DNA of 60,229 nucleotides from Patescibacteria group bacterium (GTDB lineage: Bacteria; Patescibacteriota; Patescibacteriia; JAXHNJ01). Positions 14,253-38,205 of the stretch are shown here, piece by piece. The stretch lies in contig JAXHNJ010000002.1 of the NCBI GenBank assembly GCA_034520665.1, positions 1 to 60,229 on the forward strand, read 5' to 3'. Under the pieces are notes generated by a model, which was given only the letters and a program-made list of their open reading frames with translations, was not told the origin of the DNA and ran no database searches. Position 1 is the first letter of the stretch, and every line of letters starts with the position of its first letter. The position numbers were made by a program, and so were the translations under genes.

Positions 14253-14262
14253 GGAGAAGACC

Positions 14263-17236: not shown

Positions 17237-17488
17237 TTGTTCGTCTTGTCGGCGATCATTATCACAAGCCTTGCAGGTTACCTTAAACGCCACGGGCACA
17301 AACCAGGATGGCATTGGTTGCATTTTCTGCAGGACTTACTGATAAGTGTCACCGTTGGTTTTATGGGATATTTCCTGATGATGGGCGCCACAGGCAATGA
17401 ATGGTTGGCGGTGGGTGCTGCAAGTTACCTTGGGCATGTGGGGCCGATGGGGTTGGATTTGATAAAAAATAAAATTAAAGATTTATGA
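17237..17488 (+). CDS. small multi-TM protein, holin-like by position
   Basis: 83 aa with 2-3 hydrophobic segments. It lies between the terminator and the terminase region. No family match could be verified. Confidence 0.35.
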   Translation: MFVLSAIIITSLAGYLKRHGHKPGWHWLHFLQDLLISVTVGFMGYFLMMGATGNEWLAVGAASYLGHVGPMGLDLIKNKIKDL

Positions 17489-20407: not shown

Positions 20408-21228
20408 TCCGGCTCGAAAAACCTAAACGTAAAAGGGAGGCTGTACAACGCATTATCATGAAGAAATTTATTAAGCAGTATCACAAAAAGACAACCCTTC
20501 GCCTCTTCCTTGGGTCGATTGTTTCCAAGACCATGCCTACTCAGGCAAGTTTTCCCAGAAACTTTAATGTTATTGTGCTGCAGTGGTACACGTTCGCGGA
20601 AAATATGGTAACGAAGAGCCTAGAAAAAAGTGCCAAAATTGCACCTTTCGTAAGTCAAATTGAAGGCCTGGGATTACCATTGTATAGATTTACGACAACA
20701 GCACTAAAGCGTGTGGCTGAGAAGCAAATGGATAGCTATGTTGCGTTTGCTAAAGCTAGAAAGACTGGCAAGGTTTTCGACGATTTATTAAAGCAAAAGT
20801 CGGAAGTCAGAGAATGAAACACCAGCCAGCAGGGAAAAGCTTAAGCTGGCAAAGCCGATGGTATTTGTCTACTGTGCTAGAAGATACAATAAAAATTAAA
20901 ACTCTTGAAAAAATTGTCAAGCCATTCTCGACAAGGCTCTAGGCTTATCTAAAGCATGGGCAAAACCGGGGAGCACTTGCCAAGCATAGACTGAAAGACA
21001 GGGCTTGCAACTCAGATTATGTCAGCAAAAATTCGCGCGCAAAAGTAGCTAAATACTACCAGAGAGCATGTTGAGTTTTTCAACAAGCATCCTGAGAGGT
21101 TACTGCAGGCTCTATTTGGCAAGCGATAGAAGACTTTTGTCTAACGACTTTGCTGTGTTTTCTATCGACACGATCAGAGGCAAAAGCAACAGTATATTGA
21201 GGAGGCGAAAACCGAGGTAACGAATGTG

Positions 21229-21450
21229 ATGAAAATTAAAAAAATAATGTACACGAAACGCGATTTAATAGCTGTCAAGCGCGCTATTCTCGATTGAGCA
21301 AAAGGCAAGCGAGTGGTGGTGGTGCCAATTAACGGCGATAAGCTTACTTACGCTCAGGCTAATATGAATGAACTTTTAAAGCTACAAGACGACATAAAAC
21401 AGTATTTGAATCGCGCTGATAATAAGAGCGAATGGATATTATCTTTTTGA
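21229..21450 (+). pseudogene. gpW-like head-tail joining protein with in-frame TGA at 21295-21297
   Basis: YTKRDLIAVKRAILD*AKGKRVVVVPINGDKLTYAQANMNELLKLQDDIKQYL fits the gpW family pattern. The same frame continues on both sides of the stop. Confidence 0.6.
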
Positions 21451-22131
21451 GCAAGTGACGAAGGTACTTTAATTTGCCCCTTGTTGAAAACAACCAGTCA
21501 GCCAGTCGGGTATTGTTTTTGCTAAGAGCCTAGAAAAGCTAAATTTAACGCTAATTATTGTCGCGGCTAGCATAGGTGCGGGTTTTGATATGTTTCTAGG
21601 TTGTGTTGTTGGAGGGGTTAATTTACTTTGTTATATTTGTGTGTGTTGTTGGCGGCATAAACAAGAAGACCGCCACTTCCGATATTAAAAGTGAGCAAAG
21701 TCCAGCTGTCTATATTCCTGATAAGAAAGAATATCGAAGACACGAATGTTTTAGAGCGAGGAAAGAGTCGAGCGGCTCTTTCAAGCCTTTTCGGTAGGCA
21801 ATGCAAGAAGATATGTCATCTGAGCTAAAAATTGTATTGCTGGGTATTTTAAATATTAATGATTCTCATTTGCCATTTACTGGGTATCATCATCTAGATT
21901 TTTGCTATTAGATAAAGTATTTATGTTTGAGGGGATGGCGTGGGAGATGCAAAAATTGGCCACGAAGATTTGGAAAATGTTTTATGTGAAATAACTGGTT
22001 TGGGAAAGTGCCGGTCTAGACGACTACACTCAACGAAAGAATCAGTGATAATAATGTTTTGTTAGATAGAGATTATCTCCTCTGCGGAAAAGCAACAAAG
22101 GCTGTGGCAAGTATTATGCCAGGCTGGATGT

Positions 22132-22377
22132 ATGAAAAACTCATTAAATCCTGACATCAGAAACAGTTCTCAACCAAATTTAGATGTTATGCTAACTATC
22201 GGGATTTTTGTGTGGGCTGGCGGATTGCATTTATACAATAGAGTGGTTAGAAGAGAGATTGAACACAATGCAGTACTGCTTGAACAACATTATAATAATT
22301 TAGAAAATCACCTCATTCGGCTGATGCAAACAGAAATACCACTACCAGAATCTGGCGAAGAACTAACACGGGCTTGA
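22132..22377 (+). CDS. small membrane protein, unknown function
   Basis: Intact 81-aa ORF with one TM segment, in the AT-richer patch inserted between gpW and portal. Confidence 0.3.
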   Translation: MKNSLNPDIRNSSQPNLDVMLTIGIFVWAGGLHLYNRVVRREIEHNAVLLEQHYNNLENHLIRLMQTEIPLPESGEELTRA

Positions 22378-22599
22378 AAAAGCTTCCATGCATCTGGGAA
22401 AGAAGAGCTACTGCTACGAGCTATCCATTAGTAGTTCTGCATAGAGCAATTCGACAAAAAGAACAGGTAATAATAAATCATAGGGCTGAAAACCATTATT
22501 CACCATGAATAAGTTCTCCCTCAGTGTGCATAGCTAATATTTCTTATTATATTTTCTATACGGAAATAATACTGAAGCTACTACTAACTCGTGTTTTAA

Positions 22600-24091
22600 A
22601 TCTTTAAATAACCTATTCAAACCTTCCCCTAAAGCCCACTGACGACGCTGCCTCACAAAAGGGGCGGTTTAGTCGTTGGCAGGTGGCAAAGCGGCGGCCC
22701 ACATTGCGGCAACATCTGGTTCATTGGCCACATTGCGTCATCGCTCGCGAGAAGTGCTGCGCAATAACGCCTATGCCAACAGTGCGATTGAATCGTTTGT
22801 GGCTAACGCTGATTTCGGCACGGGGATCGTGCCGCGTCTGGCAATTAAGCGATGCACAGACCAGAGAGAAAATACAAAACCTTTCGGGCGAGATGGGTTG
22901 ATGAATGTGATTGATTTACTGGATTAACGAGACTTTTACGGTTTGCAAACATTGGCTTGCCGTAGTGTGATGGAGTCTGGCGAGGTGCTGGTTCAACTTG
23001 TGCCTGCGCAAATTAAAGCATGCGGCGCTATTCCGTTGCAGTTACAGATTATAGAGGCAGATCGCCTGCTTGAAGAAGACAAAGTTCTCTCAAATGGACA
23101 TCAGATTCGTAATGGGTGTGGAGTTTGACAAACGTGGTAAACGCGTTGCTTATCACTTGTTGAAACAGCATCCTGGCGAAGGCGATAGCATGAGCCAAGA
23201 GGCAGTTCGCGTTCCAGTGGACAACGTGATTCATCTATTTAGAACGTTGCGCCCTGGGCAAGTGCGGGGCGTACTCCTGGCTTGCACCTGTTTTAAGCTT
23301 ATTGCACCAATCTGAGGAGTACAGAAGATGCCAGAGCTGACTCGCAAAAAGCTTGCCGCACATGTTGTGTGGTGCGATGGAACGTCTGGTCAGGAGATGA
23401 CTTTACGGAACCAAGTATCGGGTCTGATGCAGGGCGAAACTGACGATAATGTGGCGCTGCGCAACTTGAATCCTGTGGCTGGTTATTCAATTGCTTGATG
23501 GAGAAAACCCCTGAGCTAACCCAACCAGCGGATGTTGGGCCACGTCATGAGGCTTGGATCAAGCAACAGTTACGTGGCATGGCTGCGGGTATTGGTGTTA
23601 CGTACGAACAGTTATCAGGCGATCTGCGTGGGGTTAATTATTCCAGTATTCGTGCTGGGCTTTTAGAGTTCCGTCGTAAAGTCGAAAGCCTGCAATATCA
23701 TCATTATTCACCAGCTCTGTCGTCCTATTGCGCTCAAGCGGATGGATTATGCTGTTGCCAGTGGTGCACTCGCCATTCCAGATTATAAGGCCAACAAGCA
23801 GGCTGATCAAACTATTCATTGGCAGCCGCCCAAATGGGATTGGTAGATCCAGTCAAAGATTGCATGGCCGATGTGATGGCAGTGCGCGCGGGGTTTGAGT
23901 CGCGTGGTGATGTCGTTGCCCGTCGAGGCGAGGATGTTGAAACGCTGGATAACACTATCGCAGAAGACAAAGCGAGGAGCGAAGCATTTAACTTAATCTT
24001 TGACTCGGATGCATCACACACCGACCAAAAGGGAAGCATACAGACTTTAACTGAACGTATGACACAACATTTAATTAACGAGGAGGAATAG
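22600..24091 (+). pseudogene. lambda-family portal protein, fragmented (5' limit approximate)
   Basis: Translated pieces are LATLRHRSREVLRNNAYANSAIESFVAN..GTGIVP, GIGVTYEQLSGDL..VNYSSIRAG and W.PP.WDWVDPVKD..A....R.G, in several frames. Confidence 0.75.
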
Positions 24092-24890
24092 ATGCAAGAA
24101 CAACTTCATCTTTAACGATAACATAGGGTCCAATGGCATTACTGCCAAACAGCTTATTCATGACCTGGAGTCACTTGATAAAGCTGATAACATCACTGTT
24201 CGCATCATAGTCCGGGCGGTTGTGTATTTGATGGCTTGGCTATATATAATGCCTTGAATCGACATAAAGCGAAGATTGATGTTTATATAGATGGCATCGC
24301 ACTTCTATGAAGATGATTGCCATGGCGGGTGATAATATCTACATGGCTGAAAATGCTTTAATGATGATTCATAACCCGTTTACAAGTGTTCAGGCGATGC
24401 AAAAGAACTTCGCAAATCAGCGGATACTTTGGATAAAACAACGGATTCACTGGTTAAGGCTTATGTGCTAGCCAGCAATCAACCTGAGGAAAAAATTCAA
24501 AACTGGGATGAATGATGAAACCTGGTTTATGCACAAGAAGCGTTACATGTAGTTTATTCATCACATTACGCCAAGTAACAAAATGGTAGCGCAGTTTGAT
24601 GTTAGTGGGTTTAAAAATGTGCCTAAACAGATAGAAAAACTATCACATGACGGCACTCAACAAGAGAGGGAGCGTTGTCAAGCCATTGTGGCATTATGCG
24701 AACAGGTCAATATGGTAGATGCAGCAGCTAGGTTTATGTAAGCTTGGGCTTAATATTAGCCAAGCAAGAGAAAGACGATTCGATGTTGGCCAAGACACAA
24801 AATCTATCCATAATCATCATCATTTTATGAATGAGTCATCGAGTCCATTAATTGATGATGCAAAAAAACGAAACATAGGAGATGCGAAAT
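24092..24890 (+). pseudogene. ClpP/S49-type head maturation protease, fragmented
   Basis: SPGG.VFDGLAIYNALNRHKAKIDVYIDGIA, MAGDNIYMAENALMMIHNP and DETWF motifs lie in shifted frames. The ATG overlaps the portal stop. Confidence 0.7.
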
Positions 24891-25245
24891 GAATGAATTA
24901 CGTGAAGAAAAATACATCGGTGATGTATTGCACTGGGAAGAAGATGCCTATTTTAGCCGCTAAGTGGTAGAGATAAACCAGGAGGGTTTACCTATTGGTA
25001 GTTTGCTTGGACAAGTAACAGAAACGGGTCAGTGGGTTCCGCTCAAGCTTAATGGCGCAAATGATGGCAGCGAGCAAGCCAGAGCTATCGTGATTGCTGC
25101 AACAAAAAAAGAGAGCAAATATCTTATTATTGCTCGTCATGCCATTGCCAAAGAAACCGGTATTGTTTGGCCGCAAACCAAGTCAGAAACGATTGAAGTC
25201 ATTAAGCAACAACTAGAAGCCCGTGGCATTCTAGTTCGTCTGTAA
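24889..25245 (+). pseudogene. head decoration protein (gpD-like) with in-frame TAA at 24961-24963
   Basis: MNELREEKYIGDVLHWEEDAYFSR*VVEINQEGLPIGSLLGQVTETGQWVPL reads in one continuous frame interrupted by a single stop. Confidence 0.6.
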
Positions 25246-25258
25246 ACAGGAGAGTAGT

Positions 25259-26235
25259 ATGCAAAACCCATTCAACAATCCAGCCTTTGAAACAGCAACA
25301 TTAACAAAAGCCATTAACCTGCTGCCTAACAGTTATGGTCGATTACGAGAATTAAACTTGTTCCCTGAGAAGGGTGTCCGTGATAGAACGATTGTTGCTG
25401 AATTCAAACAAGGACAGCTCAATTTGTTACCCACAAAGCCTGTGGGGTCAGATGGAACCAAATATATTAATGCAAAGCGACATGTGCGTTCGTTTCACAT
25501 TCCTCATATTCCATTTGATGGTGAAATATTGCCAGATGAATATCAGAGTATCCGTGCGTTTGGTAGTGGTCTGAGCTAAGCCAGCTCGCACAGCTTATGA
25601 ATGACAAACGGCAAACCATGCGCAACAAACATGCGATCACATTAGAATATCAGCGGATGGGTGCATTAAAGGGCCAAGTTACCGACGCAGATGGCAGTCT
25701 TATCTACGACTGGTTTGATGAATTTGACATGAAGCAAAAATCTTTCAATTTTAAATTTATTTAAGACAGACGTTAAAAAACTTTGTCTTGATATTAAGCG
25801 TCATATCGAAGACAACTAAAGGGGAATACCATGACTTACGTGCATGTGCTTACCTCAAGCGAATTTTTTGATACGCTTACTGGTCATGCGCAGGTTAAAG
25901 AAGCTTATGAACGCTGGCAATCAGGCGCCATGTTACGTGATGACATGCGCAATCATTTTACCTTTGCAGGTATCACCTTTGAGGAATATCGTGCCTGTGT
26001 GAGTGATAGCAACGCGATCAAGCATTGATCCAGCCTGGCGAGGCCTCATGCTTTCCCTATGGGTACACAAAACACTTTTCAAACTGTCGCGCCCGTGACT
26101 TTCTGGAAACAGCAAATACCTTGGGTCAGGTAATATATGCCAAGCAAGAAGTCAAAAGTAGCTTTCAACGGCGTGCGCATTCATACACAATCCAACCCGC
26201 TGTCAATTTGTTATCGGCCTGGGGTGTTGGTTAAG
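25259..26235 (+). pseudogene. major capsid protein, lambda gpE family, fragmented
   Basis: Translated pieces are MQNPFNNPAFETATLTKAINLLPNSYGRLRELNLFPEKGV.., LEYQRMGALKGQVTDADGS.IYDWF and TFAGITFEEYR, across frames. Confidence 0.75.
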
Positions 26236-27321
26236 CTGGCAGGCGGATAAATTGATAAGACTTAGGTGTTAAGGGTTGGTGCAGGTCCTAGGCTGCCCAA
26301 GAAAGGGCTTGGTGTTGCTCATTAAAGATGTAATCTGTCCGGCAGTACGAACGGCTTCAGCGTCGTGCATAGTCTAAGGCATAACATATGGCATCTAAGA
26401 AACTTGTTGACTGCCTAGTGAGCCAGGCTGGCCAGATATATTTTTCAATAAGAATCTATACCGATCAACGGCGGTAGAGTTTTGGTCGGTCGCCATTGGT
26501 TTAGCTATAACATAACAATCAAGTTTTGTCGCCAATATAAGTTTCCCGCTTCAGATCAGTATGCGTCATTTCTCTGAACTGTGGGATTATCCAGTTAAGC
26601 ACTGCGTCAAACGGTAAGCACAGAAATGAATTTTTATTTTGAGGGACTAGATGAACCAGCTTAAGGGCTGGGCCTGCTGGAGCGTCAGCTTTGAGCATAC
26701 CCATAGTCGGGATGTTGTTATTATATTGCCAGATATGTAATCAACCAAATCACGTCCAGCACGATTGTTGCTGAATGCACATGTGCTGGCTTTGAGGTCC
26801 ACATCGTTGTGCGAAAAAGTGGCGAGCGTATTATTTTCCCATTTGCAGATTGTCGTTCATTGCTGGGATTGAAGCCACCAAAGATTAAAATAACATCTGA
26901 AAGCTTGCAACATAATCAGCATAGCCATGGTTGGCCATATATTCAACAATATTATCGCGAAGGTTCATTACAGGGATTGATCCAGGAAGGACTACAGTGC
27001 TGTCTATATGGGCAAATACTCATTTAAAACAAAAGAGACATTAATTCAAGGCAGAATTCTGTTTATATGCAGGATAAGCATGAACCCAACTTCATTTCCT
27101 GCAATGCACAAACTAAATAGCCTGCCTTGAGGAGCAGAATATCTTTTTGCTGTGTCGTGATATTTTCTCTTACTACCCTCTGGGTAGTGGGGTTTTGTCC
27201 TGGTGATTGGCTTCCTTGTCTCTGTATCAAGGCAACAATAACGAAACTATGCTTTTTGCGGCCATCGCAATAGCCAGTCATAGCTGCATCTTAGTGGCTT
27301 TATAGCTTGTAATTTGGACCT

Positions 27322-29604
27322 TTGGTGGGAAATTTCTTTCAAAATTCAATTATGGAGCACTTTACGGGAAATGCCTCTGAATGGTCAATTTATATTGGCT
27401 TAACTGGCTTGTTTTTTCTTTTGTTCTCTTTCTTTATTAGAAAGAAATATAAAAATTTAAAGTTTTGGCTTTTTGTTTTTCTTTTCTTTTTTATTATATC
27501 TTTAGGTCCCTTCCTCCATGTCCTTGGTACAATTAAGCCAAAAATTCCTCTGCCCTATTTATTTATTTACCATTATATTCCTTTTTTCAAAAACATAAGA
27601 TCTGTCGGCCGAGCCTTTATTTACGCTTCGCTGTCAATTTCTATAATCAGCGCCTTTGGTTTTTCTTATATTTTTCAAAAACTTAAAAACAAGCAAACAT
27701 TACTAAAAATTTGTTTTCTAATATTTTTTTCGATTATTATTATTGATTTTTGGGCCGTACCTAATACCACTTCCGTTGAGATTCCCGAGATCTACCATCA
27801 GATGGCCAAAGATAAATCAGATTATAAAATTCTTCTGCCAACTATAGATATAAGCCATGGCGTTGGCTCTATGTCAAAATATTATAAAACTCTGCACGGA
27901 AAAGATTATGTGGCCGGCTTTCACTTTGCCCGAGAAAATCCAGAACTTTTCAAAAAAGCCAACCGAACACCAGTAGTCAATAATCTAATTTATGCCTTGC
28001 CGTACGGTCGTCCTACCAATAGTTTTATAGAACAAGACATACCTCTTATCAGTAATAAAACACTTAATGAAAATAATATTAAATATATTATTCTCAATAA
28101 ACAATTTATCGGCAAAGATATTACACTTGATAATTGGGTAAAAATAAGAAATTTTATTGAAGATAATATTAAGGTAAAAAAAGTTATAAATGATAATCAT
28201 GGTCTGGCTTATAAAGTTTTGCCCTCAAAAAATAATGACATAGTAATTCTACAAAAAAATAACGGTTGGACTGATACTAGACTACTTAATACCGGCGAAT
28301 TTGTGGCTGATGCTTCAGAAAACAATCCAAGCTTATTAATCAATAATTATAGTGCAAATAATAAAAATATAGCACTTACTTTAAATATTCGTTCCAGTCA
28401 ACCAAATCGCAAAATCTCATTAAAACTAAATAATAATGAGATTAAAAATTTTGACCTAAGTCAAAAAAGATCAATTATAAAAACTTTAATTGAAAATATT
28501 AAACCAGGTGAAAATAGACTTGATTTTATATTAAAAGACAGCTTAGGCCAAAAAATTGAAATCTCAGAACATGACACTTTCACTCTAAGCTTAAACTATA
28601 AAGAATCTAAAAACTTTTCTTACCCCCAATACTACGATGATCTAGCCCGTATAATTTCAGATAATAATGTTATCCAAACTCCGCTTATTATTTATGATTC
28701 TAAAAATAATAATATTAGTAAAAATAATATTCTCAGATTAAATACACTTGAACAAGATGAGGCCTGTTCTTGTTTAAAAATAGATGATTATAGTAATTTT
28801 GATTCTTTAAAAGAAACTATCGCCACCAAAGACATTAATTATCAAAGAATAAATAGTCAGTTATGTTTAAAAAAATATAATATTAAATATATTATCATTA
28901 ATAAGGAATTTTTAAGTGCAAACGAATACAGTAATATGATCAGTTATATTGCCTATTCTATACCTTATAAAGAATTAATACATAACGATAATAAACTGCA
29001 AATCTATCAAATTCTTGAGCCAGATAGTAAAAATAAAACCTGGATCTCCAACTTTGAAAAAAATAATATAAATGAATGGGATAATTTCTATGGCTCTTTT
29101 AATGATATTACTATCACTAAAGACTCACACACAGGTAAACACTCGGCGCAAATAAACTTTCAACCAGGACAAAATTTCAATGGCTTAATTAAGCTATTCA
29201 ATACCCCAAAAATAGAAGCCTCTGTTGAAGGTTGGATAAAAGTCAAAAATTGGTCCGAAGGATTTGTTAGTATCTATTTTGATTTTATTAAAAACAAAGA
29301 TCACTTCTACAAGCCTAAGTTAATAGTAAACGACAGCTTTTATTTACCATACCATTATACCGGACATTTATACCATAATAATGAAAAAATTAATTTTCCG
29401 CATAATTTGCCAAATGAAAAATGGATAAAAATGAAATTAGAGATAAAAAACAGCCACCTGTATGTATATCAGGATGAAAAAGAAATATTAAAAATAAATA
29501 ATTATGTTCATTCCCCGCTTTATGGTTTTCGACTGGGTGTGGGAGGATGCTGCCCGGAATCTAATATTCAAATGCTAATTGATGACTTTAAAATAACCTA
29601 TTAA
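27322..29604 (+). CDS. 5'-truncated membrane protein with large extracytoplasmic region and C-terminal LamG/ConA-like domain
   Basis: The frame opens right after the TAA at 27310-27312 and has no ATG or RBS. The N-terminus reads like the middle of a polytopic (YfhO/GT-C-like) domain. There is an internal duplicated segment (IKYIILNKQF.. / IKYIIINKEF..). The C-terminal beta-rich domain ends ..LIDDFKITY. Confidence 0.6.
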   Translation: MVGNFFQNSIMEHFTGNASEWSIYIGLTGLFFLLFSFFIRKKYKNLKFWLFVFLFFFIISLGPFLHVLGTIKPKIPLPYLFIYHYIPFFKNIRSVGRAFIYASLSISIISAFGFSYIFQKLKNKQTLLKICFLIFFSIIIIDFWAVPNTTSVEIPEIYHQMAKDKSDYKILLPTIDISHGVGSMSKYYKTLHGKDYVAGFHFARENPELFKKANRTPVVNNLIYALPYGRPTNSFIEQDIPLISNKTLNENNIKYIILNKQFIGKDITLDNWVKIRNFIEDNIKVKKVINDNHGLAYKVLPSKNNDIVILQKNNGWTDTRLLNTGEFVADASENNPSLLINNYSANNKNIALTLNIRSSQPNRKISLKLNNNEIKNFDLSQKRSIIKTLIENIKPGENRLDFILKDSLGQKIEISEHDTFTLSLNYKESKNFSYPQYYDDLARIISDNNVIQTPLIIYDSKNNNISKNNILRLNTLEQDEACSCLKIDDYSNFDSLKETIATKDINYQRINSQLCLKKYNIKYIIINKEFLSANEYSNMISYIAYSIPYKELIHNDNKLQIYQILEPDSKNKTWISNFEKNNINEWDNFYGSFNDITITKDSHTGKHSAQINFQPGQNFNGLIKLFNTPKIEASVEGWIKVKNWSEGFVSIYFDFIKNKDHFYKPKLIVNDSFYLPYHYTGHLYHNNEKINFPHNLPNEKWIKMKLEIKNSHLYVYQDEKEILKINNYVHSPLYGFRLGVGGCCPESNIQMLIDDFKITY

Positions 29605-29627
29605 AAAATGAATAAAAATATGTATTT

Positions 29628-30050
29628 TTATTTTTTATCTATTTTCATTATTAAGTAAGAAACTAAAATTATTAATAACCCCAATAAAGCAGAAATTAAA
29701 AAACTTAAATTGCCAAGATCTCTGGTTTTATAATAAATTACTAATACTGAAATTAAAGTAATAATAATCACTGAAATATATTCTAAGATAATAGATTTTC
29801 GTGTTTTTTTAATTTCATTATCTTCAATAATCTTCTTATTTGAATCATTAAAACCAATAGCTAAGATACCGAAAACTATAACCAATAAAAGATGATAATT
29901 TAAATTATAAAATTTGGTTACAAAACCATCCGATAATAATTCAATTAAATAGTAAAGTAAATAAAAAATTAGAGAATTAACAAAAGCTACATAAATCAAT
30001 TTTTTTATAAATAATCTTTTTATTATTTTATTATCTTCCTCTAAATTCAT
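29628..30050 (-). CDS. small 4-TM membrane protein
   Basis: Intact ORF lying 9 nt downstream of the preceding gene in the same operon. Confidence 0.5.
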   Translation of the reverse strand: MNLEEDNKIIKRLFIKKLIYVAFVNSLIFYLLYYLIELLSDGFVTKFYNLNYHLLLVIVFGILAIGFNDSNKKIIEDNEIKKTRKSIILEYISVIIITLISVLVIYYKTRDLGNLSFLISALLGLLIILVSYLIMKIDKK

Positions 30051-30059
30051 GTTCTTAAA

Positions 30060-31577
30060 TTAAAATATCTTTTTAATTAGTGTTTTTAACCTATTAATTA
30101 CTGAATTAATATTTAAGGGCTGGCCTTCTAATTTCATTTTGATATAATCTATCTTTACTTGAGCATTATGACTATAAAGACCCGGCATTCTTAAATTAAA
30201 ATAAATTTTATCATCATATTTCATTAGATTATCCAAATTATAATTCTCTGAAATAATAATATCCCCAAAAGTATCTTTTGGTTGGTATTTTGCTAATACA
30301 TAATTTATTTCTTCCAAATTATTTTCAATGTCTTCGGTGGTATAATAAATATCTACTTGCGGCAAATAATCAAATTCTTCAAAAATAAAATCTTTGCCGG
30401 TTATATAAATATCTGCCTTGGCTAGAGAAAAAATGCTATTTTCGGTTAAATCTTCAAAATAGTATTCTTCATTGGCATTCTTTAGCCTTAGGTTTTGATT
30501 ATTATTTAAGTTTTTATTTAAATTTATTTTTTGATCTAAAGCATCTTCATGAATAGCTACAAAATTTATCCTCTCTGAATTAGTTTTTATATTTAATTCC
30601 TTAAATTCATTATCAGCAAAATACTCCGGACCATCAGCCAAAAAAATTTTACTATTAAAATAAAAATATTTTTGAAATGTTTTTAAATTGCCAAATAAAA
30701 TATCTTCATTGGCATCTATCTCAAGCCGATACAGACCGGTTTCAAGATTAGATTTATTAATCTCAAATTTTTGAATAGGCCCGTTTTCATTAGTAGCCTT
30801 GTCTTCTCCGTCATCTTTTATGGTCTGGGTATAAACCAGTTGATCCCCTAAATACATTCTAAAATTTAAGATATCACCATTGAATTTACGGTTTAAATCA
30901 ATTTTGTCAAAAGATAAACTGAATTTTTCGTTATCAATATAAGTATAGAGAGTGTGTGATCCTCTGAAATAGTGCTTTATTGTTCTGACCTTTTTACTTG
31001 ATTCATAGTTTGGAATATGATAAAAATTTCCTTTTGGTATTCCAATTATACCCACATTTTGATTTTCATCTTTTAAAAAATTATCAACCGATTGATATTG
31101 TTTTATTTTATTACTATCAATATTTGGTCTCTGCCATAATTTTAATTCATTTTCAGTGTTATTAATAAAAGGCCAATTCAAGTTGTCTAAAAACTTATTT
31201 CTGATTATTGCTCTATATTCCCCTTTTTCCACTCCACCCTGAGCTAAAAGTTCAATATCGGGCTGGGATATGTTATCCAGAAATATCTCCAAACTAACCT
31301 GATCAAAATTACGTAATAACTTGGCCGTGAATTTTAAATTATCTGTATTCTGATACCACTTTAATTCATTATCTTCATCTAATAATCCTTTAACACTATC
31401 ATTGGTATCTAAATTAATAATATTATTCTGGCCAATATCTTCTGGCTGCCAAGTATAGGTAACCGAACCGGTTAAAGCGTAGTTTTTGTTAACTAGCCAA
31501 AACAAAATTAAAAAGCCCAAAACCCCCAGGCTGATATTAATAAATTTTAAATAGTAATGGTATTTATTTTTGGTCAT
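30060..31577 (-). CDS. N-terminally anchored extracytoplasmic protein, unknown family
   Basis: 505 aa with a single N-terminal TM segment. It overlaps the upstream GT-C gene by 14 nt, suggesting translational coupling. Confidence 0.55.
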   Translation of the reverse strand: MTKNKYHYYLKFINISLGVLGFLILFWLVNKNYALTGSVTYTWQPEDIGQNNIINLDTNDSVKGLLDEDNELKWYQNTDNLKFTAKLLRNFDQVSLEIFLDNISQPDIELLAQGGVEKGEYRAIIRNKFLDNLNWPFINNTENELKLWQRPNIDSNKIKQYQSVDNFLKDENQNVGIIGIPKGNFYHIPNYESSKKVRTIKHYFRGSHTLYTYIDNEKFSLSFDKIDLNRKFNGDILNFRMYLGDQLVYTQTIKDDGEDKATNENGPIQKFEINKSNLETGLYRLEIDANEDILFGNLKTFQKYFYFNSKIFLADGPEYFADNEFKELNIKTNSERINFVAIHEDALDQKINLNKNLNNNQNLRLKNANEEYYFEDLTENSIFSLAKADIYITGKDFIFEEFDYLPQVDIYYTTEDIENNLEEINYVLAKYQPKDTFGDIIISENYNLDNLMKYDDKIYFNLRMPGLYSHNAQVKIDYIKMKLEGQPLNINSVINRLKTLIKKIF

Positions 31578-33171
31578 TTTTGGTTAACTGGTAGATTTCA
31601 TTATTTGGATCAATTTTTTCAAAACTTAAACGGTAAACCGATAAATTATTATTTACTTCATCGAGGTTTGAAGCTAAATTGCCGTCTAAATAGATAGGCG
31701 CTTTTTCGTATAACTGAGGCAATTTATTTTGAAGAGAAGCAGTTAATCTGGAGCCATTATAGCCAATCACTTGGCGGTCGGGAAAATAAAGCTTATCATT
31801 AGCTCCGGCTATTATAATAGCATTTTCCCCCGTATTTTCCAAGACATAATCAAGCTTATTATTACCTTCTTGACTTTTAGTAAATAACATGACCTTAAGA
31901 CCGTAGTAATCATCCAGAAAAATAATATAAATACTGCTAAAGATAATTAACGATAAAAGTAAAGTGGTAATAATTTTATTAAAACGGTATTTTCGAAAAA
32001 ACTTGAAAATAAAATAAACGGCCAAAGGCAGACAAAAAACATACAAAGGTAGCCAATAGCGGGCGTAAGATATACCAATTAAGGTGGTGCCCTGGCTGAT
32101 GAACTCGATGAATCTAAAACTACCGTAATAAATCATCAGCCAAACCGAGACCAATAAAAACCACAATGAATAGCTAAATATATTTTTATTTACCTCTTTC
32201 TTTATAAATTTTTTAATAACTATAACTAAGCCAAAAAAAGACAAACCAAACCAGAGAAACATTAAATAAAAAGAATAATCAAAAAAACGTTTCACAAATA
32301 AATCCGAGTTAAAACCAAAGGGTAAAAGTATTTTCATAAAATTCTTGGCACTCAAACCGCTTTCACTGCCAGAAGAAGCAGTAATATTTTTGGTATAACT
32401 GGTGGTTAAAGCCTGGCCAAAGGTCTGGTTTTGAAAATATAATAAAGGAGTCAATATTACTAAAAAACCAATGGCCGCTAATATCAAATATTTATAATTT
32501 AATTTTTTATAATTAAAACCTAAAATTATTACAGCTGATAATAAAATCCAGAAAATCTCTGAGGTGCGAGTGATCAGAGCTAGTCCCAAAAAAATACCAA
32601 AAAATAAATAGTTAAGCCAGCTTGAATTTTTAACCATTTTAATAAAAAAGTAAGCCGTGATAATTAAAAAAGCGACAAAGAGACCGTTATGCCAAAACGG
32701 CCGCATGGCATAAAAAACATAAACCGGCTGGATAAAAAGTAAGAGACTGGCTATAAAAGCAATTTTCTTGATAAAAATTTCTTTTAAAAACAAATAAAAG
32801 AAAAAAACGGCCACTGAGCCGATTAAAGGGCCCAGATAATAAATAATCCAAGAACCAAAAATCTTGCCAAAAAAACCATAGATCAAGGGCAAGCCCAGAA
32901 AAGAACCAGGCACTATATAGCCATGATGATAAGAGAAGCTTCTCGGCTTGACTAAACCATTAAACTCTTGATTTAACGGCTCCTGATATTTAAAATTAGT
33001 ATTTTCTATAAAATGCTTAGTAAAAAAGTGATTAAGGGTTTCGTCGGGCGAGGAGAATTTGTGGACATGATTAAAGGCGAAAAGTGAGTAAAATATAAAG
33101 AAAATTACTAATAAAAAAAATAATGCCGTAATAAGTATTTTATGCCCCTTTCTGTAAAATTTAGTTAACAT
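31564..33171 (-). CDS. GT-C fold glycosyltransferase (ArnT/PMT, GT39/GT83-like)
   Basis: 535 aa and polytopic, with an SPDE motif in the first predicted loop. Its size and topology are typical of polyprenyl-phosphate-sugar dependent transferases. Confidence 0.75.
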   Translation of the reverse strand: MLTKFYRKGHKILITALFFLLVIFFIFYSLFAFNHVHKFSSPDETLNHFFTKHFIENTNFKYQEPLNQEFNGLVKPRSFSYHHGYIVPGSFLGLPLIYGFFGKIFGSWIIYYLGPLIGSVAVFFFYLFLKEIFIKKIAFIASLLLFIQPVYVFYAMRPFWHNGLFVAFLIITAYFFIKMVKNSSWLNYLFFGIFLGLALITRTSEIFWILLSAVIILGFNYKKLNYKYLILAAIGFLVILTPLLYFQNQTFGQALTTSYTKNITASSGSESGLSAKNFMKILLPFGFNSDLFVKRFFDYSFYLMFLWFGLSFFGLVIVIKKFIKKEVNKNIFSYSLWFLLVSVWLMIYYGSFRFIEFISQGTTLIGISYARYWLPLYVFCLPLAVYFIFKFFRKYRFNKIITTLLLSLIIFSSIYIIFLDDYYGLKVMLFTKSQEGNNKLDYVLENTGENAIIIAGANDKLYFPDRQVIGYNGSRLTASLQNKLPQLYEKAPIYLDGNLASNLDEVNNNLSVYRLSFEKIDPNNEIYQLTKNDQK

Positions 33172-33198
33172 AAGGATATTATATCACTTTTATATTTG

Positions 33199-33227
33199 TT
33201 TACAAAATAACCATTTTCTGTTATATT
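33199..33227 (+). promoter_or_regulatory. candidate promoter of the + strand glycosyltransferase operon
   Basis: TTTACA, a 17-nt spacer, then TATATT. The -10 element ends 24 nt upstream of the ATG at 33252. In AT-rich DNA a chance match is plausible. Confidence 0.3.
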
Positions 33228-33251
33228 AGAGATAAATAAATTTATATATTT

Positions 33252-33938
33252 ATGAATAATAATAAAATATATATTATCATACCAGCCTTTAATGAAGCTC
33301 AAACCATTGGTAATGTTTTAAATGATTTAAAAGATAAATATTCTAATATTGTAGTAGTTGATGACGCTTCTGATGATAACACGGCAAAAATCGCTAAAAG
33401 TATGGGGGTTATTGTTTTAGAACATTTAATCAATCGCGGACAGGGAGCCGCTCTAAAAACCGGCATTAATTACGCTTTAAATAATAAAGCTGATGTTATT
33501 GTCACTTTTGACGCTGACGGCCAACATCAAACAGATGATATTGAGAAACTAATAAAGCCTATTATAGAAGATAATTTTGACGTAACCTTGGGCTCTAGAT
33601 TTCTTAATTCCGATTCTGTAAAAAAAATACCGCCCTTAAAAAAAATTATTTTAAAAACTGGTTTAATTTTTACCAAAGCCTTCTCTCATTTAAAGATTAC
33701 TGATACCCATAATGGTTTACGGGCTTTTTCTAACCAGGCAGCTCAAAAAATTATAATTAGACAAGATCGTATGGCCCATGCTTCAGAAATATTAGATGAA
33801 ATATCCAGAAATAATATTAAATATAAAGAAATTCCGGTAACTATTCATTATACAGATTATTCAAAATCAAAAGGTCAAAGCTCTTTAGCTTTTGGCAAAA
33901 TATTATTCAAATACTTTATTGGTAAATTAATGAAATGA
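33252..33938 (+). CDS. GT2 polyprenyl-phosphate glycosyltransferase (DPM1/GtrB/ArnC-like)
   Basis: IIIPAFNEAQTIG, VVVDDASDDNT, TFDADGQH and TDTHNGLRAF motifs. Confidence 0.85.
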   Translation: MNNNKIYIIIPAFNEAQTIGNVLNDLKDKYSNIVVVDDASDDNTAKIAKSMGVIVLEHLINRGQGAALKTGINYALNNKADVIVTFDADGQHQTDDIEKLIKPIIEDNFDVTLGSRFLNSDSVKKIPPLKKIILKTGLIFTKAFSHLKITDTHNGLRAFSNQAAQKIIIRQDRMAHASEILDEISRNNIKYKEIPVTIHYTDYSKSKGQSSLAFGKILFKYFIGKLMK

Positions 33939-34288
33939 TTATAAAAATAATAATTAGTGTTCTAGTCTTATTTTTCATTTCTCGAGTCTATTTAAGATTC
34001 CGAGACGGTTCTTTAAGTTTATTAGCATTTATCATTTGGGTTTTACTCTGGTCTGGTATTACTTTTTTTACCTGGTGGCCGAGATTTAGTGATTTTATTG
34101 CTAATAAAATAGGTGTTGGTCGCGGGGTTGATGTTTTAGTTTATTTTTCTATTATCTTTCTTTTTTATAGCGTTTTTCGTATATATATCAAACTAGAATT
34201 TATTGAACATGAAATCACTTCATTAGTCAGAAATATAGCTTACAAACAAAAAAGAAAAAATAAAAATGAAGATATTAATAATCACTGA
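33935..34288 (+). CDS. DUF2304 family small membrane protein
   Basis: 117 aa with 4 TM segments. The IGVGRGVDVLVY motif matches the family signature, and it shows the typical pairing with a GT2. It overlaps the GT2 stop by 4 nt. Confidence 0.75.
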   Translation: MIIKIIISVLVLFFISRVYLRFRDGSLSLLAFIIWVLLWSGITFFTWWPRFSDFIANKIGVGRGVDVLVYFSIIFLFYSVFRIYIKLEFIEHEITSLVRNIAYKQKRKNKNEDINNH

Positions 34289-35405
34289 GTTTTTTCCCAA
34301 ATCAGAAAAGGGTGAATTACGGGGAGGTGTAGAAGCTCGGGCTTTTTACATGGCTAAATATTTAGCCGAAAAATATGAAACTCATATTATTTGCTCTAGA
34401 GAACCCCATACCTCAGAAGAGGATAATATAAACAATATAAAAATACATCGCTGTGGGCCTATTAGAAATTACACCCAAGGCGGTTCAATAACAAAGCGTC
34501 TGAGTTTTATTTATCAGACCATTAAAAAAGCGCGTAATATAAAACCTGACTTAGTTGATGGATATAATTGGATTTGTTATTTGGCGACTTTAAAAATTGC
34601 TAAAAAATTAAATATACCATCTATAGCCACTTATCATGATGTTTGGATCGGAGATTGGATCAAAAATATGGGTTTAATTTCCGGAATTTTAGGCAGCATT
34701 ATGGAAAAATATATTCTTTCAAAAAAATGGTCACTGTTTATCGCTAATAGCAAAGTTACAAAAAATAAATTAATTAAACAAAATATTAAAGCAGATAAAA
34801 TAAGCGTGGTCTATAATGGTGTGGATTTTAAAAAATTCAATAATATTAATACTCAAAAAGATGTAGAGCCAACAATTTGCTATATTGGTCGTTTAGTAAA
34901 ATACAAAAAAGTGGATATATTAATTAAAGCTCTAAAAAAAATAAAAAATAATTTGCCACAAATAAAACTAAAAATAATCGGCAGCGGCCCGGAAATAAAT
35001 AAAATAAAGACTTTAGCTAAAAATTTAGATTTGGAAAATAATATCACATTTCTTGGATTTATTAAAAATCATGAAAAAGTCATCGCTCATTTGAAAAAAT
35101 CTCATGTTTTTTGTCTTCCCTCTATTGTCGAGGGTTTTGGTATGGTAGCTGTGGAAGCTATGGCTGCTGGCATCCCTTATGTATGCACTAATATTCCCCC
35201 AATTAGAGAGGCCACTAAAAACGGAAAAGGTGGTTTACTTTTTGAAAAAAATAATATAAATGATTTAAAAAATAAACTGCTTAAAATTTTACTTGATAAT
35301 CAGCTCTACCAGTCTTTAGCAAATGAAGGACCTGTTTACACTAAAAGATATGATTGGTCTAAGATAGGACAAGAATTAGAAAAAACTTATTATAATTTAG
35401 TATGA
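34266..35405 (+). CDS. GT4 (Glycos_transf_1) glycosyltransferase
   Basis: C-terminal PSIVEGFGMVAVEAMAAGIPYV motif (E-x7-E type). Confidence 0.85.
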   Translation: MKILIITEFFPKSEKGELRGGVEARAFYMAKYLAEKYETHIICSREPHTSEEDNINNIKIHRCGPIRNYTQGGSITKRLSFIYQTIKKARNIKPDLVDGYNWICYLATLKIAKKLNIPSIATYHDVWIGDWIKNMGLISGILGSIMEKYILSKKWSLFIANSKVTKNKLIKQNIKADKISVVYNGVDFKKFNNINTQKDVEPTICYIGRLVKYKKVDILIKALKKIKNNLPQIKLKIIGSGPEINKIKTLAKNLDLENNITFLGFIKNHEKVIAHLKKSHVFCLPSIVEGFGMVAVEAMAAGIPYVCTNIPPIREATKNGKGGLLFEKNNINDLKNKLLKILLDNQLYQSLANEGPVYTKRYDWSKIGQELEKTYYNLV

Positions 35406-36421
35406 AAATAGCTTTACTGACAGCTACATTTTCTAAATTTAGCGGTATTGACCGCGTAGTTGAAATGCAGGCTAAAAAATTAGCCTCGCAAGGACATAAA
35501 GTATTAATTTTAACTCTGGAGTCTGATTTAAAATTAATAAAAGATAGTATAAAAATTATTAATTTGAAAATGCCAAAAAATATTTTTTGGCAAAGAATTT
35601 ATCGTCTTTTATTTTTTTTAGATTTTAAAAAAATAAATAAAGCGGCTGAATTAGTTAGAGATTACGATAAAATATACAGCCATCAATATCCGATGAATTT
35701 AATCGCTTTAAAAGCAAAAAATAAATTTGGTGCTAAATATATCTATTATAACCATGGCCTGGCTCCAGCTGAAACATTTAATAATTTATTTGAAAAAATA
35801 TACATTATAATTTTTAGATTTCTAACCAATATAACCGCCAAAAAAGCGGACCAGGCTATATCAATTAGTAAATATTTATCTAAAATACTTAAAAAGGAAA
35901 CCGGACTTGAAAGCGATATAATCTATGATACTATTGATAAGAAAAAATTTAATGAAAATTTATCGGGCCATAAAATTAGAAACAAATATAATTTAAATAG
36001 TAATCCAATAATTCTATATGTCGGACGTATTTCACCCCATAAAGGTATTCATCTTTTAATCAAAGCTTTTAATAAAGTTTTAAAAAAAGTTCCTAAGGCT
36101 CACCTACTCATCGTTGGTAAAGAAACATTTTCTGGCTACAGTAATAAATTAAAATCTTTATCAAAGAAAAATGTTCATTTTACTGGTTACGTGTCTGATT
36201 CTGACTTGCCTTTGTATTACGCAGCCGCTGATATTTATGCTTCAGCCAGTTTATGGGAAGGGTTTAACTTACCCCTTCTAGAAGCACAAACTTGCGGCCT
36301 ACCAGTTATTGTCTTTGATATAGGGCCTCATTCTGAAGTTATTGATAAAAATGGTATTCTTGTTGATAAAAAAAATATACCAGCGTTTGCCAAAGCCTTA
36401 GAAATAGGAATAAAAAAATAA
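35402..36421 (+). CDS. GT4 glycosyltransferase
   Basis: YVGRISPHKG and SLWEGFNLPLLEAQTCGLPVI motifs. Shares a 4-nt overlap with the previous gene. Confidence 0.85.
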   Translation: MKIALLTATFSKFSGIDRVVEMQAKKLASQGHKVLILTLESDLKLIKDSIKIINLKMPKNIFWQRIYRLLFFLDFKKINKAAELVRDYDKIYSHQYPMNLIALKAKNKFGAKYIYYNHGLAPAETFNNLFEKIYIIIFRFLTNITAKKADQAISISKYLSKILKKETGLESDIIYDTIDKKKFNENLSGHKIRNKYNLNSNPIILYVGRISPHKGIHLLIKAFNKVLKKVPKAHLLIVGKETFSGYSNKLKSLSKKNVHFTGYVSDSDLPLYYAAADIYASASLWEGFNLPLLEAQTCGLPVIVFDIGPHSEVIDKNGILVDKKNIPAFAKALEIGIKK

Positions 36422-36437
36422 TATTATAAAAGAAAAG

Positions 36438-37943: not shown

Positions 37944-37944
37944 T

Positions 37945-38205
37945 ATGAAATTATTTATAAACTTCATTATAATAATTATTTTTTTATTCTGCTTTTCCCG
38001 TAAAAAAGATGTTTTTATAATAGTAGCTTCAATAATAATGACTTTTTTTCTTATTTTTAGGCTTAATTTTGCTCAAATTTTCCAATATTTAATAAATTCT
38101 GGCCTAAGTACTGTTATTTCTTTAATCCTAGGCATATTTATTTTAAGCCTTATAACTTTAATAAACTTTATTTTGTTAAAAAAAATAAAAAAATTATTTA
38201 TTTAG
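37945..38205 (+). CDS. small 3-TM membrane protein
   Basis: The ATG lies 1 nt after the upstream stop and is in frame with track ORF 37894..38205. Confidence 0.4.
   Translation: MKLFINFIIIIIFLFCFSRKKDVFIIVASIIMTFFLIFRLNFAQIFQYLINSGLSTVISLILGIFILSLITLINFILLKKIKKLFI

What the first reader, a model, noticed from the sequence alone, without database searches (positions are those of the whole stretch)
27240..27340. Abrupt junction between decayed mid-GC proteobacterial DNA and intact, very AT-rich DNA, cutting an ORF
Base composition, codon style and gene integrity all change within under 100 bp. To the left almost everything is a pseudogene. To the right more than 30 consecutive ORFs are intact despite abundant A/T homopolymers. 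The first right-hand ORF is open only from the TAA at 27310-27312 and has no ATG or RBS. It begins inside what looks like a polytopic membrane domain, so it is truncated at the junction. No integrase, IS end, tRNA or direct repeat marks the boundary.

Three explanations are possible:
- The contig is chimeric, through mis-assembly or an artificial join.
- A CPR-like AT-rich genome carries about 27 kb of dead proteobacterial (possibly host-derived) DNA inserted into a membrane-protein gene.
- A decaying proteobacterial genome recently received a large AT-rich block.

The second would be biologically remarkable.
Basis: partly seen in the sequence, partly recalled or inferred. Interest (0 to 1): 0.75.

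Follow-up and report, generated by a model that had tools for sequence, protein, structure and literature searches.

The report
Chimeric contig join, not biology
The sharp switch from mid-GC "dead" proteobacterial DNA to intact AT-rich DNA is almost certainly an assembly artefact that glued an error-ridden, low-coverage stretch of a gammaproteobacterium onto a well-polished Patescibacteria (CPR) genome, so it is a data-quality problem, not gene transfer.

Summary
GC drops from 0.44 to 0.30 within about 100 bp, and the first right-hand gene is truncated. The biological readings fail.

1. An independent Logan contig (SRR26473340_780) matches window 27318-41577 at 14,259 of 14,261 positions. It runs straight through the breakpoint, carries the intact 1041-aa gene, and continues into more AT-rich genes.
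2. The missing 281-aa 5' part is in NCBI as a "partial" protein (MDZ7799159.1, Patescibacteria group bacterium). It sits at the end of an 85,398-bp contig that stops within a few bases of the breakpoint.
3. The only two differences from the Logan contig lie within 12 bp of the breakpoint. The 54 bp to their left (27264-27317) are a roughly 72%-identical, garbled copy of the CPR gene.
4. The left-hand "pseudogenes" do not look like natural decay. Six genes, including the normally essential gltX and cysS, are collinear with intact orthologues or homologues over all or nearly all of their length. They carry about 70 one- or two-base frameshifts, about 1 per 100 nt, at most 6 in-frame stops, and no larger deletions. 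This fits uncorrected long-read error. The right side matches the Logan contig exactly across 56 long A/T homopolymers.
5. Both sides are cut mid-element: a lambda-like prophage on the left and a membrane-protein gene on the right. No repeat, att site or mobile-element end lies at the join.

Verdict: chimeric contig. Low interest.

The parts
1..27263 (.). Gammaproteobacterial chromosomal segment, GC 0.44, present as a low-accuracy consensus. It holds gltX-cysS-[IS110]-brnQ-folD-tRNA-Pro followed by an incomplete lambda-like prophage.
   Evidence: Syntenic with the intact folD-brnQ-cysS-gltX block of GCA_021773275.1 (L006). The closest FolD is 81% identical; the closest named one is Aquicella siphonis at 65%. 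Composition.
226..1636 (+). gltX (glutamyl-tRNA synthetase). Collinear with residues 1-461 of the 469-aa orthologue, 76% aa identity, 20 frameshifts, 0 in-frame stops.
   Evidence: Frameshift-aware alignment against the L006 orthologue. The nucleotide alignment shows mostly 1-2-nt insertions.
1713..3114 (+). cysS (cysteinyl-tRNA synthetase). Collinear with residues 3-458 of 459, 78% aa identity, 15 frameshifts, 4 in-frame stops.
3230..4203 (-). IS110-family transposase, split into two overlapping ORFs. It lies between cysS and brnQ, where the relative has nothing.
   Evidence: Pfam Transposase_20, E = 8e-27. ORFs. Synteny comparison.
4667..5762 (-). brnQ. Matches 364 of 374 residues, 84% aa identity, 8 frameshifts, 0 stops.
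6324..7154 (-). folD. Matches 277 of 279 residues, 83% aa identity, 4 frameshifts, 0 stops.
7993..8068 (+). tRNA-Pro(TGG), the likely integration site of the prophage.
   Evidence: ARAGORN and Rfam at 63.7 bits.
8396..9555 (+). Phage-type tyrosine integrase, split by one frameshift near 8990.
   Evidence: Pfam Arm-DNA-bind_3, Phage_int_M and Phage_integrase. Three-frame translation.
13497..14252 (+). Phage AAA_24 ATPase. It is the longest ORF on the left at 251 aa and appears intact.
   Evidence: Pfam AAA_24, E = 3e-53. Its 90% cluster holds only the window's own copy, and the next relative is 50% identical.
22635..24038 (+). Phage portal gene. Collinear with residues 28-496 of 512, 16 frameshifts, 1 stop.
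   Evidence: Frameshift-aware alignment against Ralstonia phage YO026_2. PHROG portal hits.
25259..26248 (+). Phage major capsid protein E gene. Matches 334 of 334 residues collinearly, 54% identity, 7 frameshifts, 0 stops. No recognisable tail gene and no attR follow before the junction.
   Evidence: No att-like repeat of the tRNA region was found.
27264..27317 (+). Garbled junction zone. These 54 nt align to 61 nt of the CPR gene just upstream of the breakpoint at about 72% identity with a net 7-nt deletion. The zone contains an exact 13-mer, CTTAGTGGCTTTA, at 27289-27301.
   Evidence: Anchored extension score of 11, against a decoy maximum of 6-7 (0 of 400 and 0 of 400 decoys reached it). 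Alignment shown.
27318..27330 (+). First CPR bases that align cleanly. They hold the only two differences from the Logan contig: T for C at 27321, and GGG for GGGG ending at 27329.
   Evidence: BLAST btop string '3TC8-G14248'.
27322..29604 (+). 3' 760 codons of a 1041-aa Patescibacteria membrane and extracellular protein of unknown family. The first 281 aa are missing. NCBI calls it as 750 aa, starting at the ATG at 27352.
   Evidence: No Pfam hit reached the threshold.
27331..41577 (.). Stretch identical to Logan contig SRR26473340_780 at 14,248 of 14,248 positions, including 56 A/T homopolymers of 7 nt or longer.
27331..60229 (.). Patescibacteria (CPR) segment, GC 0.30, with intact genes. 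It encodes a cell-envelope glycosylation cluster (GT2, GT4, PMT_2-like GT-C, a Polysacc_synt (PF01943/PF13440) polysaccharide-biosynthesis membrane protein, UDP-glucose dehydrogenases, epimerases, GtrA), plus metK, an HtrA-like protease and a histidine kinase.
   Evidence: NCBI names the adjacent genes 'Patescibacteria group bacterium'.

Best explanation
The junction is an assembly artefact in a public metagenome-derived genome; the window's source contig is 698,002 bp.

Two unrelated DNAs were joined. One is a well-covered, fully polished Patescibacteria chromosome, on the right. The other is a low-coverage stretch of a Legionellales-like gammaproteobacterial chromosome, on the left, which survives only as an uncorrected long-read-quality consensus. 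The true CPR chromosome continues across the breakpoint into the rest of the 1041-aa gene. In the same or a sister assembly, that continuation was left stranded at the end of an 85-kb contig.

Shown:
- the native CPR context exists elsewhere;
- the stranded 5' gene part exists;
- the errors are localised at the join;
- the left half carries an error-type indel spectrum.

Inferred:
- the join came from one or a few chimeric long reads, or from a wrong path or gap-fill in a long-read or hybrid assembly graph;
- polishing with genuine CPR reads stopped about 10-70 nt short of the join, which left the garbled zone.
For: 1. Logan contig SRR26473340_780 (38,666 bp) equals window 27318-41577 at 14,259 of 14,261 positions. 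It continues for at least 7.2 kb past the breakpoint with the intact 1041-aa gene and five further AT-rich genes.

2. NCBI MDZ7799159.1 is annotated 'hypothetical protein U5L76_06195, partial [Patescibacteria group bacterium]'. It is 281 aa long and is the missing N-terminus. It lies on an 85,398-bp contig next to MDZ7799158-55, which are identical to the Logan genes beyond the breakpoint. It ends '...ITPGFSAP' where the intact protein reads '...ITPGFLHPWW'. So that contig stops within a few bases of window 27321, apparently with a 1-nt insertion at its end.

3. The only two differences from the Logan contig are within 12 nt of the breakpoint, and 14,248 identical bases follow. The 54 nt to the left are a significantly similar but roughly 72%-identical copy of the CPR gene (0 of 400 decoys reached its score).

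4. In the left half, gltX, cysS, brnQ and folD were compared with intact syntenic orthologues. They show 47 frameshifts, at most 4 stops, no gap longer than one codon, and 76-84% aa identity over all or nearly all of their length. The portal and capsid genes add 23 frameshifts and 1 stop. At nucleotide level there are 70 insertions and 16 deletions, all 3 nt or shorter and mostly outside homopolymers.

5. From established knowledge, natural bacterial pseudogene decay is deletion-biased, has a broad indel size range, and produces many substitution-derived stops. A living bacterium also cannot normally lose its only gltX and cysS.

6. Long-read errors are known to mimic pseudogenisation (PMC12007338 abstract). 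ONT per-base error is given as 1-2% (PMC13087279 abstract).

7. The right side is error-free at 56 long homopolymers.

8. Left-half proteins occur only in the NCBI record. Right-half proteins also occur in Logan. No FolD more than 81% identical exists anywhere in the collection. This fits a rare organism.

9. The prophage on the left is cut after its capsid gene, with no recognisable tail gene and no attR, and the CPR gene is cut at codon 281. No repeat, TSD or shared sequence lies at the join.
Against: - No reads could be mapped, so spanning support and depth are not measured.
- It is not proven that the 698-kb and 85-kb contigs belong to the same assembly, because accessions for the window's own proteins are hidden.
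- No sequencing adapter was found at the join.
- Frameshift density is uneven on the left. The AAA_24 gene has none in about 0.75 kb and the integrase has one in 1.2 kb. This needs variable local coverage to explain.
- A rare real variant would also be low coverage and poorly polished.
- The sequencing platform of SRR26473340 is unknown.
Confidence: 0.9

Rival explanations
1. A real but rare variant of the Patescibacteria genome exists in which at least 27 kb of gammaproteobacterial chromosome was inserted into the 1041-aa membrane-protein gene. Its low abundance would explain the poor consensus and the co-existing wild-type contig.
For: The assembly-graph picture would also arise from a minority insertion allele: the wild type runs through in Logan, the 85-kb contig ends at the node, and the 698-kb contig takes the other branch. 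The window contains no Ns, so there is no gap at the join.
Against: - The junction zone is about 28% divergent from the CPR sequence over 54 nt, while the rest of the left half has roughly 1-2% error. A real junction seen by several reads should be as good as its flanks.
- The 'insert' is a random chromosomal chunk, made of housekeeping genes plus half a prophage, not a mobile unit. No TSD, repeat or recombinase lies at the end.
- Its indel spectrum is error-like, not decay-like.
- From general knowledge, transfer of tens of kb of dead DNA between phyla into a streamlined CPR genome has a very low prior.
Confidence: 0.04
2. A decaying, pseudogene-rich gammaproteobacterial symbiont genome recently acquired a large intact block of Patescibacteria DNA.
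For: The contig is long at 698 kb. An IS110 element and a prophage are present, as in recently host-restricted bacteria.
Against: - gltX and cysS carry 15-20 frameshifts each. That is normally incompatible with a living cell, yet they keep 76-78% identity across essentially the full length of their orthologues.
- The indel spectrum is insertion-biased, with all indels 3 nt or shorter.
- The CPR block differs from a free-standing CPR contig at only 2 positions over 14.3 kb (14,248 consecutive identical bases), and that contig continues past the join.
- The acquired block begins in the middle of a gene.
Confidence: 0.02
3. The join was made by post-assembly processing, such as scaffolding, gap closing, contig merging or bin 'reassembly', and not by the primary assembler or a chimeric read.
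For: There is a quality step exactly at the join. The garbled 54-nt overlap zone could be a forced merge of two contig ends. Hybrid gap filling is known to insert long-read-quality sequence; this is general knowledge and was not tested here.
Against: There are no Ns or linker at the join. No shared sequence between the two sides could justify a merge. This rival is a variant of the artefact explanation and cannot be separated from it without the assembly logs.
Confidence: 0.04

Closest known systems
Inter-genome chimeric contigs (misassemblies) in long-read and hybrid metagenome assemblies and MAGs
   Same: Two taxonomically unrelated genomes are joined in one contig without any biological boundary marker. 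Each element is cut mid-gene. The true continuation is stranded at another contig's end. Consensus quality changes at the join. Chimeric contigs in long-read and hybrid metagenome assemblies are discussed in PMC7881036 and PMC11261854 (found).
   Different: The read-level cause could not be established here. It could be an in-silico or ligation chimeric read, a wrong graph path, or gap filling. No adapter remnant was found.
Apparent pseudogenisation caused by long-read indel errors
   Same: Genes are broken about every 100 nt by 1-2-nt indels while remaining collinear with, and similar to, intact orthologues. PMC12007338 (Kastor) and PMC8011154 (Homopolish) describe the phenomenon.
   Different: The spectrum here is insertion-biased and mostly outside homopolymers. 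That differs from the homopolymer-deletion pattern usually described for polished nanopore assemblies. It points to very low coverage or raw-read-like sequence, or to another platform.
Genuine large inter-domain or inter-phylum transfers of dead DNA, for example Wolbachia DNA in insect nuclei (recalled from general knowledge)
   Same: On the surface both show a block of non-functional foreign bacterial DNA next to intact resident genes, with an abrupt composition change.
   Different: Real cases show junctions supported by many reads and natural decay, with substitutions, stops and deletions. They do not show a coexisting identical 'uninterrupted' chromosome plus a stranded gene half at a contig end. 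None of the real-case features is met here.
Lambda-like prophage integrated next to a tRNA gene (left half only)
   Same: A tRNA-Pro is followed by a tyrosine integrase. Further on lie terminase, portal, head decoration and major capsid E genes in lambda order.
   Different: The element stops about 1 kb after the capsid gene at the artefactual join. No recognisable tail gene and no attR are present.

Membership tests
Chimeric (misassembled) contig | One side's native, uninterrupted context exists in an independent assembly. | tested here: met
   Logan SRR26473340_780 runs through the breakpoint. It matches 14,259 of 14,261 positions on the right of the breakpoint, and carries the intact gene and five more CPR genes beyond it.
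Chimeric (misassembled) contig | The part missing at the join is stranded at the end of another contig. | tested here: met
   MDZ7799159.1 is 281 aa, annotated 'partial', lies on an 85,398-bp Patescibacteria contig, and ends within a few bases of window 27321.
Chimeric (misassembled) contig | Coverage or quality discontinuity at the join. | tested here: met
   This is a proxy only. The left has about 1 small indel per 100 nt. The right has 0 differences in 14,248 nt. Errors are concentrated in 27264-27330. Depth itself could not be measured.
Chimeric (misassembled) contig | Few or no reads span the join. | not testable with these tools
   No read data are accessible.
Chimeric (misassembled) contig | The other side's native context also continues elsewhere. 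| tested here: inconclusive
   No copy of the left organism exists in the searched collections. The exact 62-mer is absent from the GTDB and JGI sets, and the best FolD is 81% identical. Only synteny of 1-7.2 kb with a relative could be shown.
Horizontally acquired genomic island or integrative element | Boundary marked by a tRNA or att direct repeats, an integrase or transposase, or a target-site duplication. | tested here: not met
   There are no repeats or recombinase at 27.0-27.6 kb. The tRNA-Pro and integrase lie about 18-19 kb away and belong to the left organism's own prophage.
Naturally decaying pseudogenes (reductive genome evolution or dead transferred DNA) | A mixed spectrum with substitution-derived stops, deletion-biased indels of many sizes, and loss of collinearity. 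| tested here: not met
   About 70 frameshifts against at most 6 stops. Insertions outnumber deletions 70 to 16, and all are 3 nt or shorter. Collinearity with intact homologues is complete or nearly complete, and gltX and cysS are affected.
Patescibacteria (CPR) genome segment (right half) | Sequence identity to DNA annotated as Patescibacteria, plus an AT-rich, compact gene organisation. | tested here: met
   The adjacent genes on the native contig are NCBI 'Patescibacteria group bacterium' proteins. GC is 0.30 and open frames of at least 100 aa cover 95%.

The most novel reading that the evidence does not exclude
A minority lineage of this Patescibacteria population really carries at least 27 kb of gammaproteobacterial chromosome, possibly derived from a host or neighbour, inserted into a large cell-envelope protein gene. 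The poor sequence quality would then only reflect its rarity.
Probability: 0.04. Interest if true: 0.8.

Novelty: not a real feature. Interest (0 to 1): 0.07.

Why it matters
It matters mainly as a warning.

A public genome record contains a 698-kb contig that fuses two phyla. Fragmentary, frameshifted 'proteins' from the low-quality half are already in NCBI nr. Taken at face value, this would suggest spectacular inter-phylum DNA transfer, or a pseudogene-rich symbiont. It could also contaminate taxonomic, pangenome and HGT analyses.

The case also gives a practical recipe for spotting such joins without reads:
- look for the intact gene in another assembly;
- look for the stranded gene half at a contig end;
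- look for errors localised at the join;
- look for an error-like indel spectrum (small, insertion-biased, few stops, collinear with intact orthologues).

Tried and rejected
- **Sequencing adapters at the join.** ONT, PacBio, Nextera and TruSeq adapter sequences, recalled from memory, were aligned to 27001-27340. No score exceeded the background from other left-half chunks.
- **Fold-back or palindromic chimera, or a shared repeat that could mediate recombination or misassembly.** The 21-nt, 81% inverted match (26875-26895 against 27308-27328) does not extend. Sensitive blastn of the left half against the right half and against L001 found nothing below E of about 0.06.
- **Prophage attR or a direct repeat of the tRNA-Pro region before the junction.** None was found.
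- **Recovering the window's own contig, the left parent or the 85-kb contig by exact DNA search.** Nothing was found in the GTDB representative genomes or in JGI metagenomes.
- **Exact-protein look-ups of the AAA_24 protein, P0001 and P0131.** None was on record.
- **Literature look-ups.** SRR26473340, GCA_021773275, JAJFKJ, GCA_964443025, U5L76 and MDZ7799159 gave no papers.
- **Organism names for the closest FolD relatives.** None is given by the sources. The left-half taxonomy therefore stays at 'gammaproteobacterium, closest named relative Aquicella (Legionellales) at 65% FolD identity'.
- **Pfam family for the truncated 1041-aa protein.** Only a sub-threshold DUF1822 hit was found.
- **E. 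coli proteins as references for frameshift counting.** This worked but was too distant for precise counts. It was replaced by the 76-84% identical orthologues from L006.
Full report
**1. The observation**

The window changes character abruptly near 27.3 kb. GC is 0.441 for 1-27263 and 0.300 for 27331-60229. Open frames of at least 150 aa cover 15% of the left part and 88% of the right part. The longest conventional ORF on the left is 251 aa. The right side is a continuous series of intact genes.

The only RNA gene is tRNA-Pro at 7993-8068. Nothing marks the boundary itself: no tRNA, no recombinase, and no direct or inverted repeat of note. The two halves share no sequence.

**2. What the two halves are**

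*Right half.* This is a Patescibacteria-type cell-envelope glycosylation cluster. It encodes GT2 and GT4 glycosyltransferases, PMT_2-like GT-C proteins, a Polysacc_synt (PF01943/PF13440) polysaccharide-biosynthesis membrane protein, UDP-glucose dehydrogenases, epimerases and GtrA. It also encodes metK, an HtrA-like protease and a histidine kinase. NCBI labels the genes that natively adjoin it 'Patescibacteria group bacterium'.

*Left half.* This is a chromosomal stretch of a gammaproteobacterium: gltX, cysS, an IS110-family transposase, brnQ, folD and tRNA-Pro. A tyrosine integrase follows, then a lambda-like prophage with an AAA_24 ATPase, terminase, portal, head-decoration protein and major capsid protein E. 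The housekeeping block is syntenic with an intact folD-brnQ-cysS-gltX block in GCA_021773275.1. The frame-corrected FolD is 81% identical to that genome's FolD. The best named relative is Aquicella siphonis at 65%.

**3. The native context of the right half exists elsewhere and runs through the breakpoint**

The 505-aa protein next to the truncated gene is also encoded on Logan contig SRR26473340_780 (38,666 bp). That contig matches window 27318-41577 at 14,259 of 14,261 positions.

Where the window turns into mid-GC DNA, the Logan contig continues. It carries the rest of the gene, which is 1041 aa as called. It then carries a 709-aa membrane protein, a GT4, 421-aa and 231-aa proteins, and a Polysacc_synt (PF01943/PF13440) protein. 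The window's ORF at 27322-29604 is therefore the 3' 760 codons of this gene.

**4. The missing 5' part is stranded at a contig end in NCBI**

The 90% cluster of this protein has three members:
- the window's 750-aa call, from NCBI, on the 698,002-bp contig;
- the Logan 1041-aa protein;
- MDZ7799159.1, 'hypothetical protein U5L76_06195, partial [Patescibacteria group bacterium]', 281 aa, on an 85,398-bp contig.

The next four genes on that contig (MDZ7799158-55) are identical to the Logan genes beyond the breakpoint.

The partial protein ends '...ITPGFSAP' where the intact protein reads '...ITPGFLHPWWGNFF'. So the 85-kb contig stops within a few bases of window 27321. Its last codons are shifted, most simply by one extra T in a T-run.

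**5. Errors pile up at the join**

Against the Logan contig, the window has T for C at 27321 and GGG for GGGG ending at 27329. After that come 14,248 identical bases.

To the left of 27318 the similarity does not stop cleanly. Window 27264-27317 aligns to the 61 nt of the CPR gene upstream of the breakpoint at about 72% identity, with a net loss of 7 nt. The stretch includes an exact 13-mer. The anchored extension score was 11. None of 400 decoys from other left-half positions, and none of 400 from other L001 positions, exceeded 7.

A sequence that is perfect for 14 kb, then has 2 errors in 13 nt, then about 28% divergence over 54 nt, and then becomes unrelated is not a pattern of natural divergence. 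It is what a join supported by poor or conflicting read evidence looks like, with polishing by genuine CPR reads stopping short of it. This last step is an inference.

**6. The left-hand 'pseudogenes' look like sequencing error, not decay**

I wrote a frameshift-aware protein-to-DNA alignment and ran it against intact orthologues from L006.

| Gene | Reference residues aligned | aa identity | Frameshifts | In-frame stops |
|---|---|---|---|---|
| gltX | 1-461 of 469 | 76% | 20 | 0 |
| cysS | 3-458 of 459 | 78% | 15 | 4 |
| brnQ | 1-364 of 374 | 84% | 8 | 0 |
| folD | 1-277 of 279 | 83% | 4 | 0 |

No gap in these four alignments exceeds one codon.

I ran the same alignment against a Ralstonia phage. 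The capsid gene matches 334 of 334 residues collinearly, with 7 frameshifts and no stop. The portal gene has 16 frameshifts and 1 stop. The total is about 70 frameshifts and at most 6 stops in about 7 kb, roughly one frameshift per 100 nt.

Nucleotide alignments of the four housekeeping genes show 70 insertions (53 of 1 nt, 16 of 2 nt, 1 of 3 nt) and 16 deletions, all 3 nt or shorter. Most lie outside homopolymers.

The following rests on established knowledge, not on tests run here:
- Natural pseudogene decay in bacteria is deletion-biased and has a broad indel size range.
- It is accompanied by many more substitutions than indels, so in-frame stops should be at least a sizeable fraction of the frameshifts.
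- gltX and cysS are normally essential single-copy genes. Fifteen to twenty frameshifts in each, with conserved motifs otherwise intact, cannot describe a living proteobacterium.

Long-read errors that fragment genes into apparent pseudogenes are well documented (PMC12007338, PMC8011154). Per-base error of 1-2% is quoted for current nanopore reads (PMC13087279).

By contrast, the right half agrees exactly with the Logan contig across 56 A/T homopolymers of at least 7 nt. Accuracy therefore steps at the same place as composition. That is an indirect sign of a coverage step.

Abundance data point the same way. Left-half proteins are found only in the NCBI record, while right-half proteins are also in Logan. 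No FolD closer than 81% exists anywhere in the protein collection.

**7. Both sides are cut mid-element**

The prophage stops about 1 kb after its capsid gene, without recognisable tail genes or attR. The CPR gene is cut after codon 281, inside its membrane domain. The left DNA is an arbitrary chromosomal chunk, not a mobile unit. This fits a random join of two molecules or two graph paths. It does not fit integration.

**8. Mechanism and remaining uncertainty**

The most likely cause is one or a few chimeric long reads, or a wrong traversal or gap-fill in a long-read or hybrid assembly graph. This connected a rare gammaproteobacterium's DNA to the abundant CPR chromosome, and the true CPR continuation ended up as the terminus of the 85-kb contig.

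Several points remain open:
- I could not find adapter remnants, fold-back structure or a shared repeat, so the precise cause is unresolved.
- Frameshift density is uneven. It is highest in the first 3 kb and is zero in the 0.75-kb AAA_24 gene. I attribute this to variable local coverage.
- I could not map reads.
- I could not prove that the two NCBI contigs come from one assembly.
- I could not find the left organism's own continuation.

A rare genuine insertion allele would produce a similar graph and a poorly polished insert. I give it about 4%, mainly because of the garbled junction, the non-mobile nature of the 'insert', and its error-type indel spectrum.

**9. Verdict**

It is not a biological feature, and interest is low. 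Its value is as a flag on a contaminated public record.

Noticed in passing
window 8221-8284: A short tandem array of an 11-nt unit (TGGAACCCCAG-like, about 5-6 copies) lies between tRNA-Pro and the prophage integrase. It may be part of the attachment or regulatory region (family D1).
   Followed up: no
window 3230-4203: An IS110-family transposase gene, split by a frameshift, sits between cysS and brnQ. In the syntenic relative GCA_021773275.1 those two genes are adjacent, so this is a lineage-specific IS insertion.
   Followed up: partly
window 46000-50000: There is a local GC rise to 0.38-0.44 inside the AT-rich half. It coincides with conserved housekeeping and sugar-nucleotide genes (UDP-glucose dehydrogenase, epimerases, metK), not with a second junction. 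By coordinate arithmetic, the Logan contig ends near window 48.2 kb.
   Followed up: partly
window 27322-44223 and L001 11974-21518: The CPR segment encodes an unusually dense set of very large, polytopic, family-less membrane proteins (1041, 709, 535, 505 and 501 aa), interleaved with GT2 and GT4 glycosyltransferases. Only one of them hits PMT_2. They may be uncharacterised GT-C-type glycosyltransferases of the CPR cell envelope.
   Followed up: no
window 1-3100: Indel density and net length inflation are highest in the first 3 kb: gltX is 28 nt and cysS 34 nt longer than the matched part of the orthologue. This would fit the window starting near a low-coverage contig end.
   Followed up: no
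window 13497-14252: The prophage AAA_24 ATPase is the only sizeable left-half gene without any frameshift. Its closest relatives in 5.8 billion proteins are only about 50% identical, so the prophage lineage is poorly sampled.
   Followed up: no
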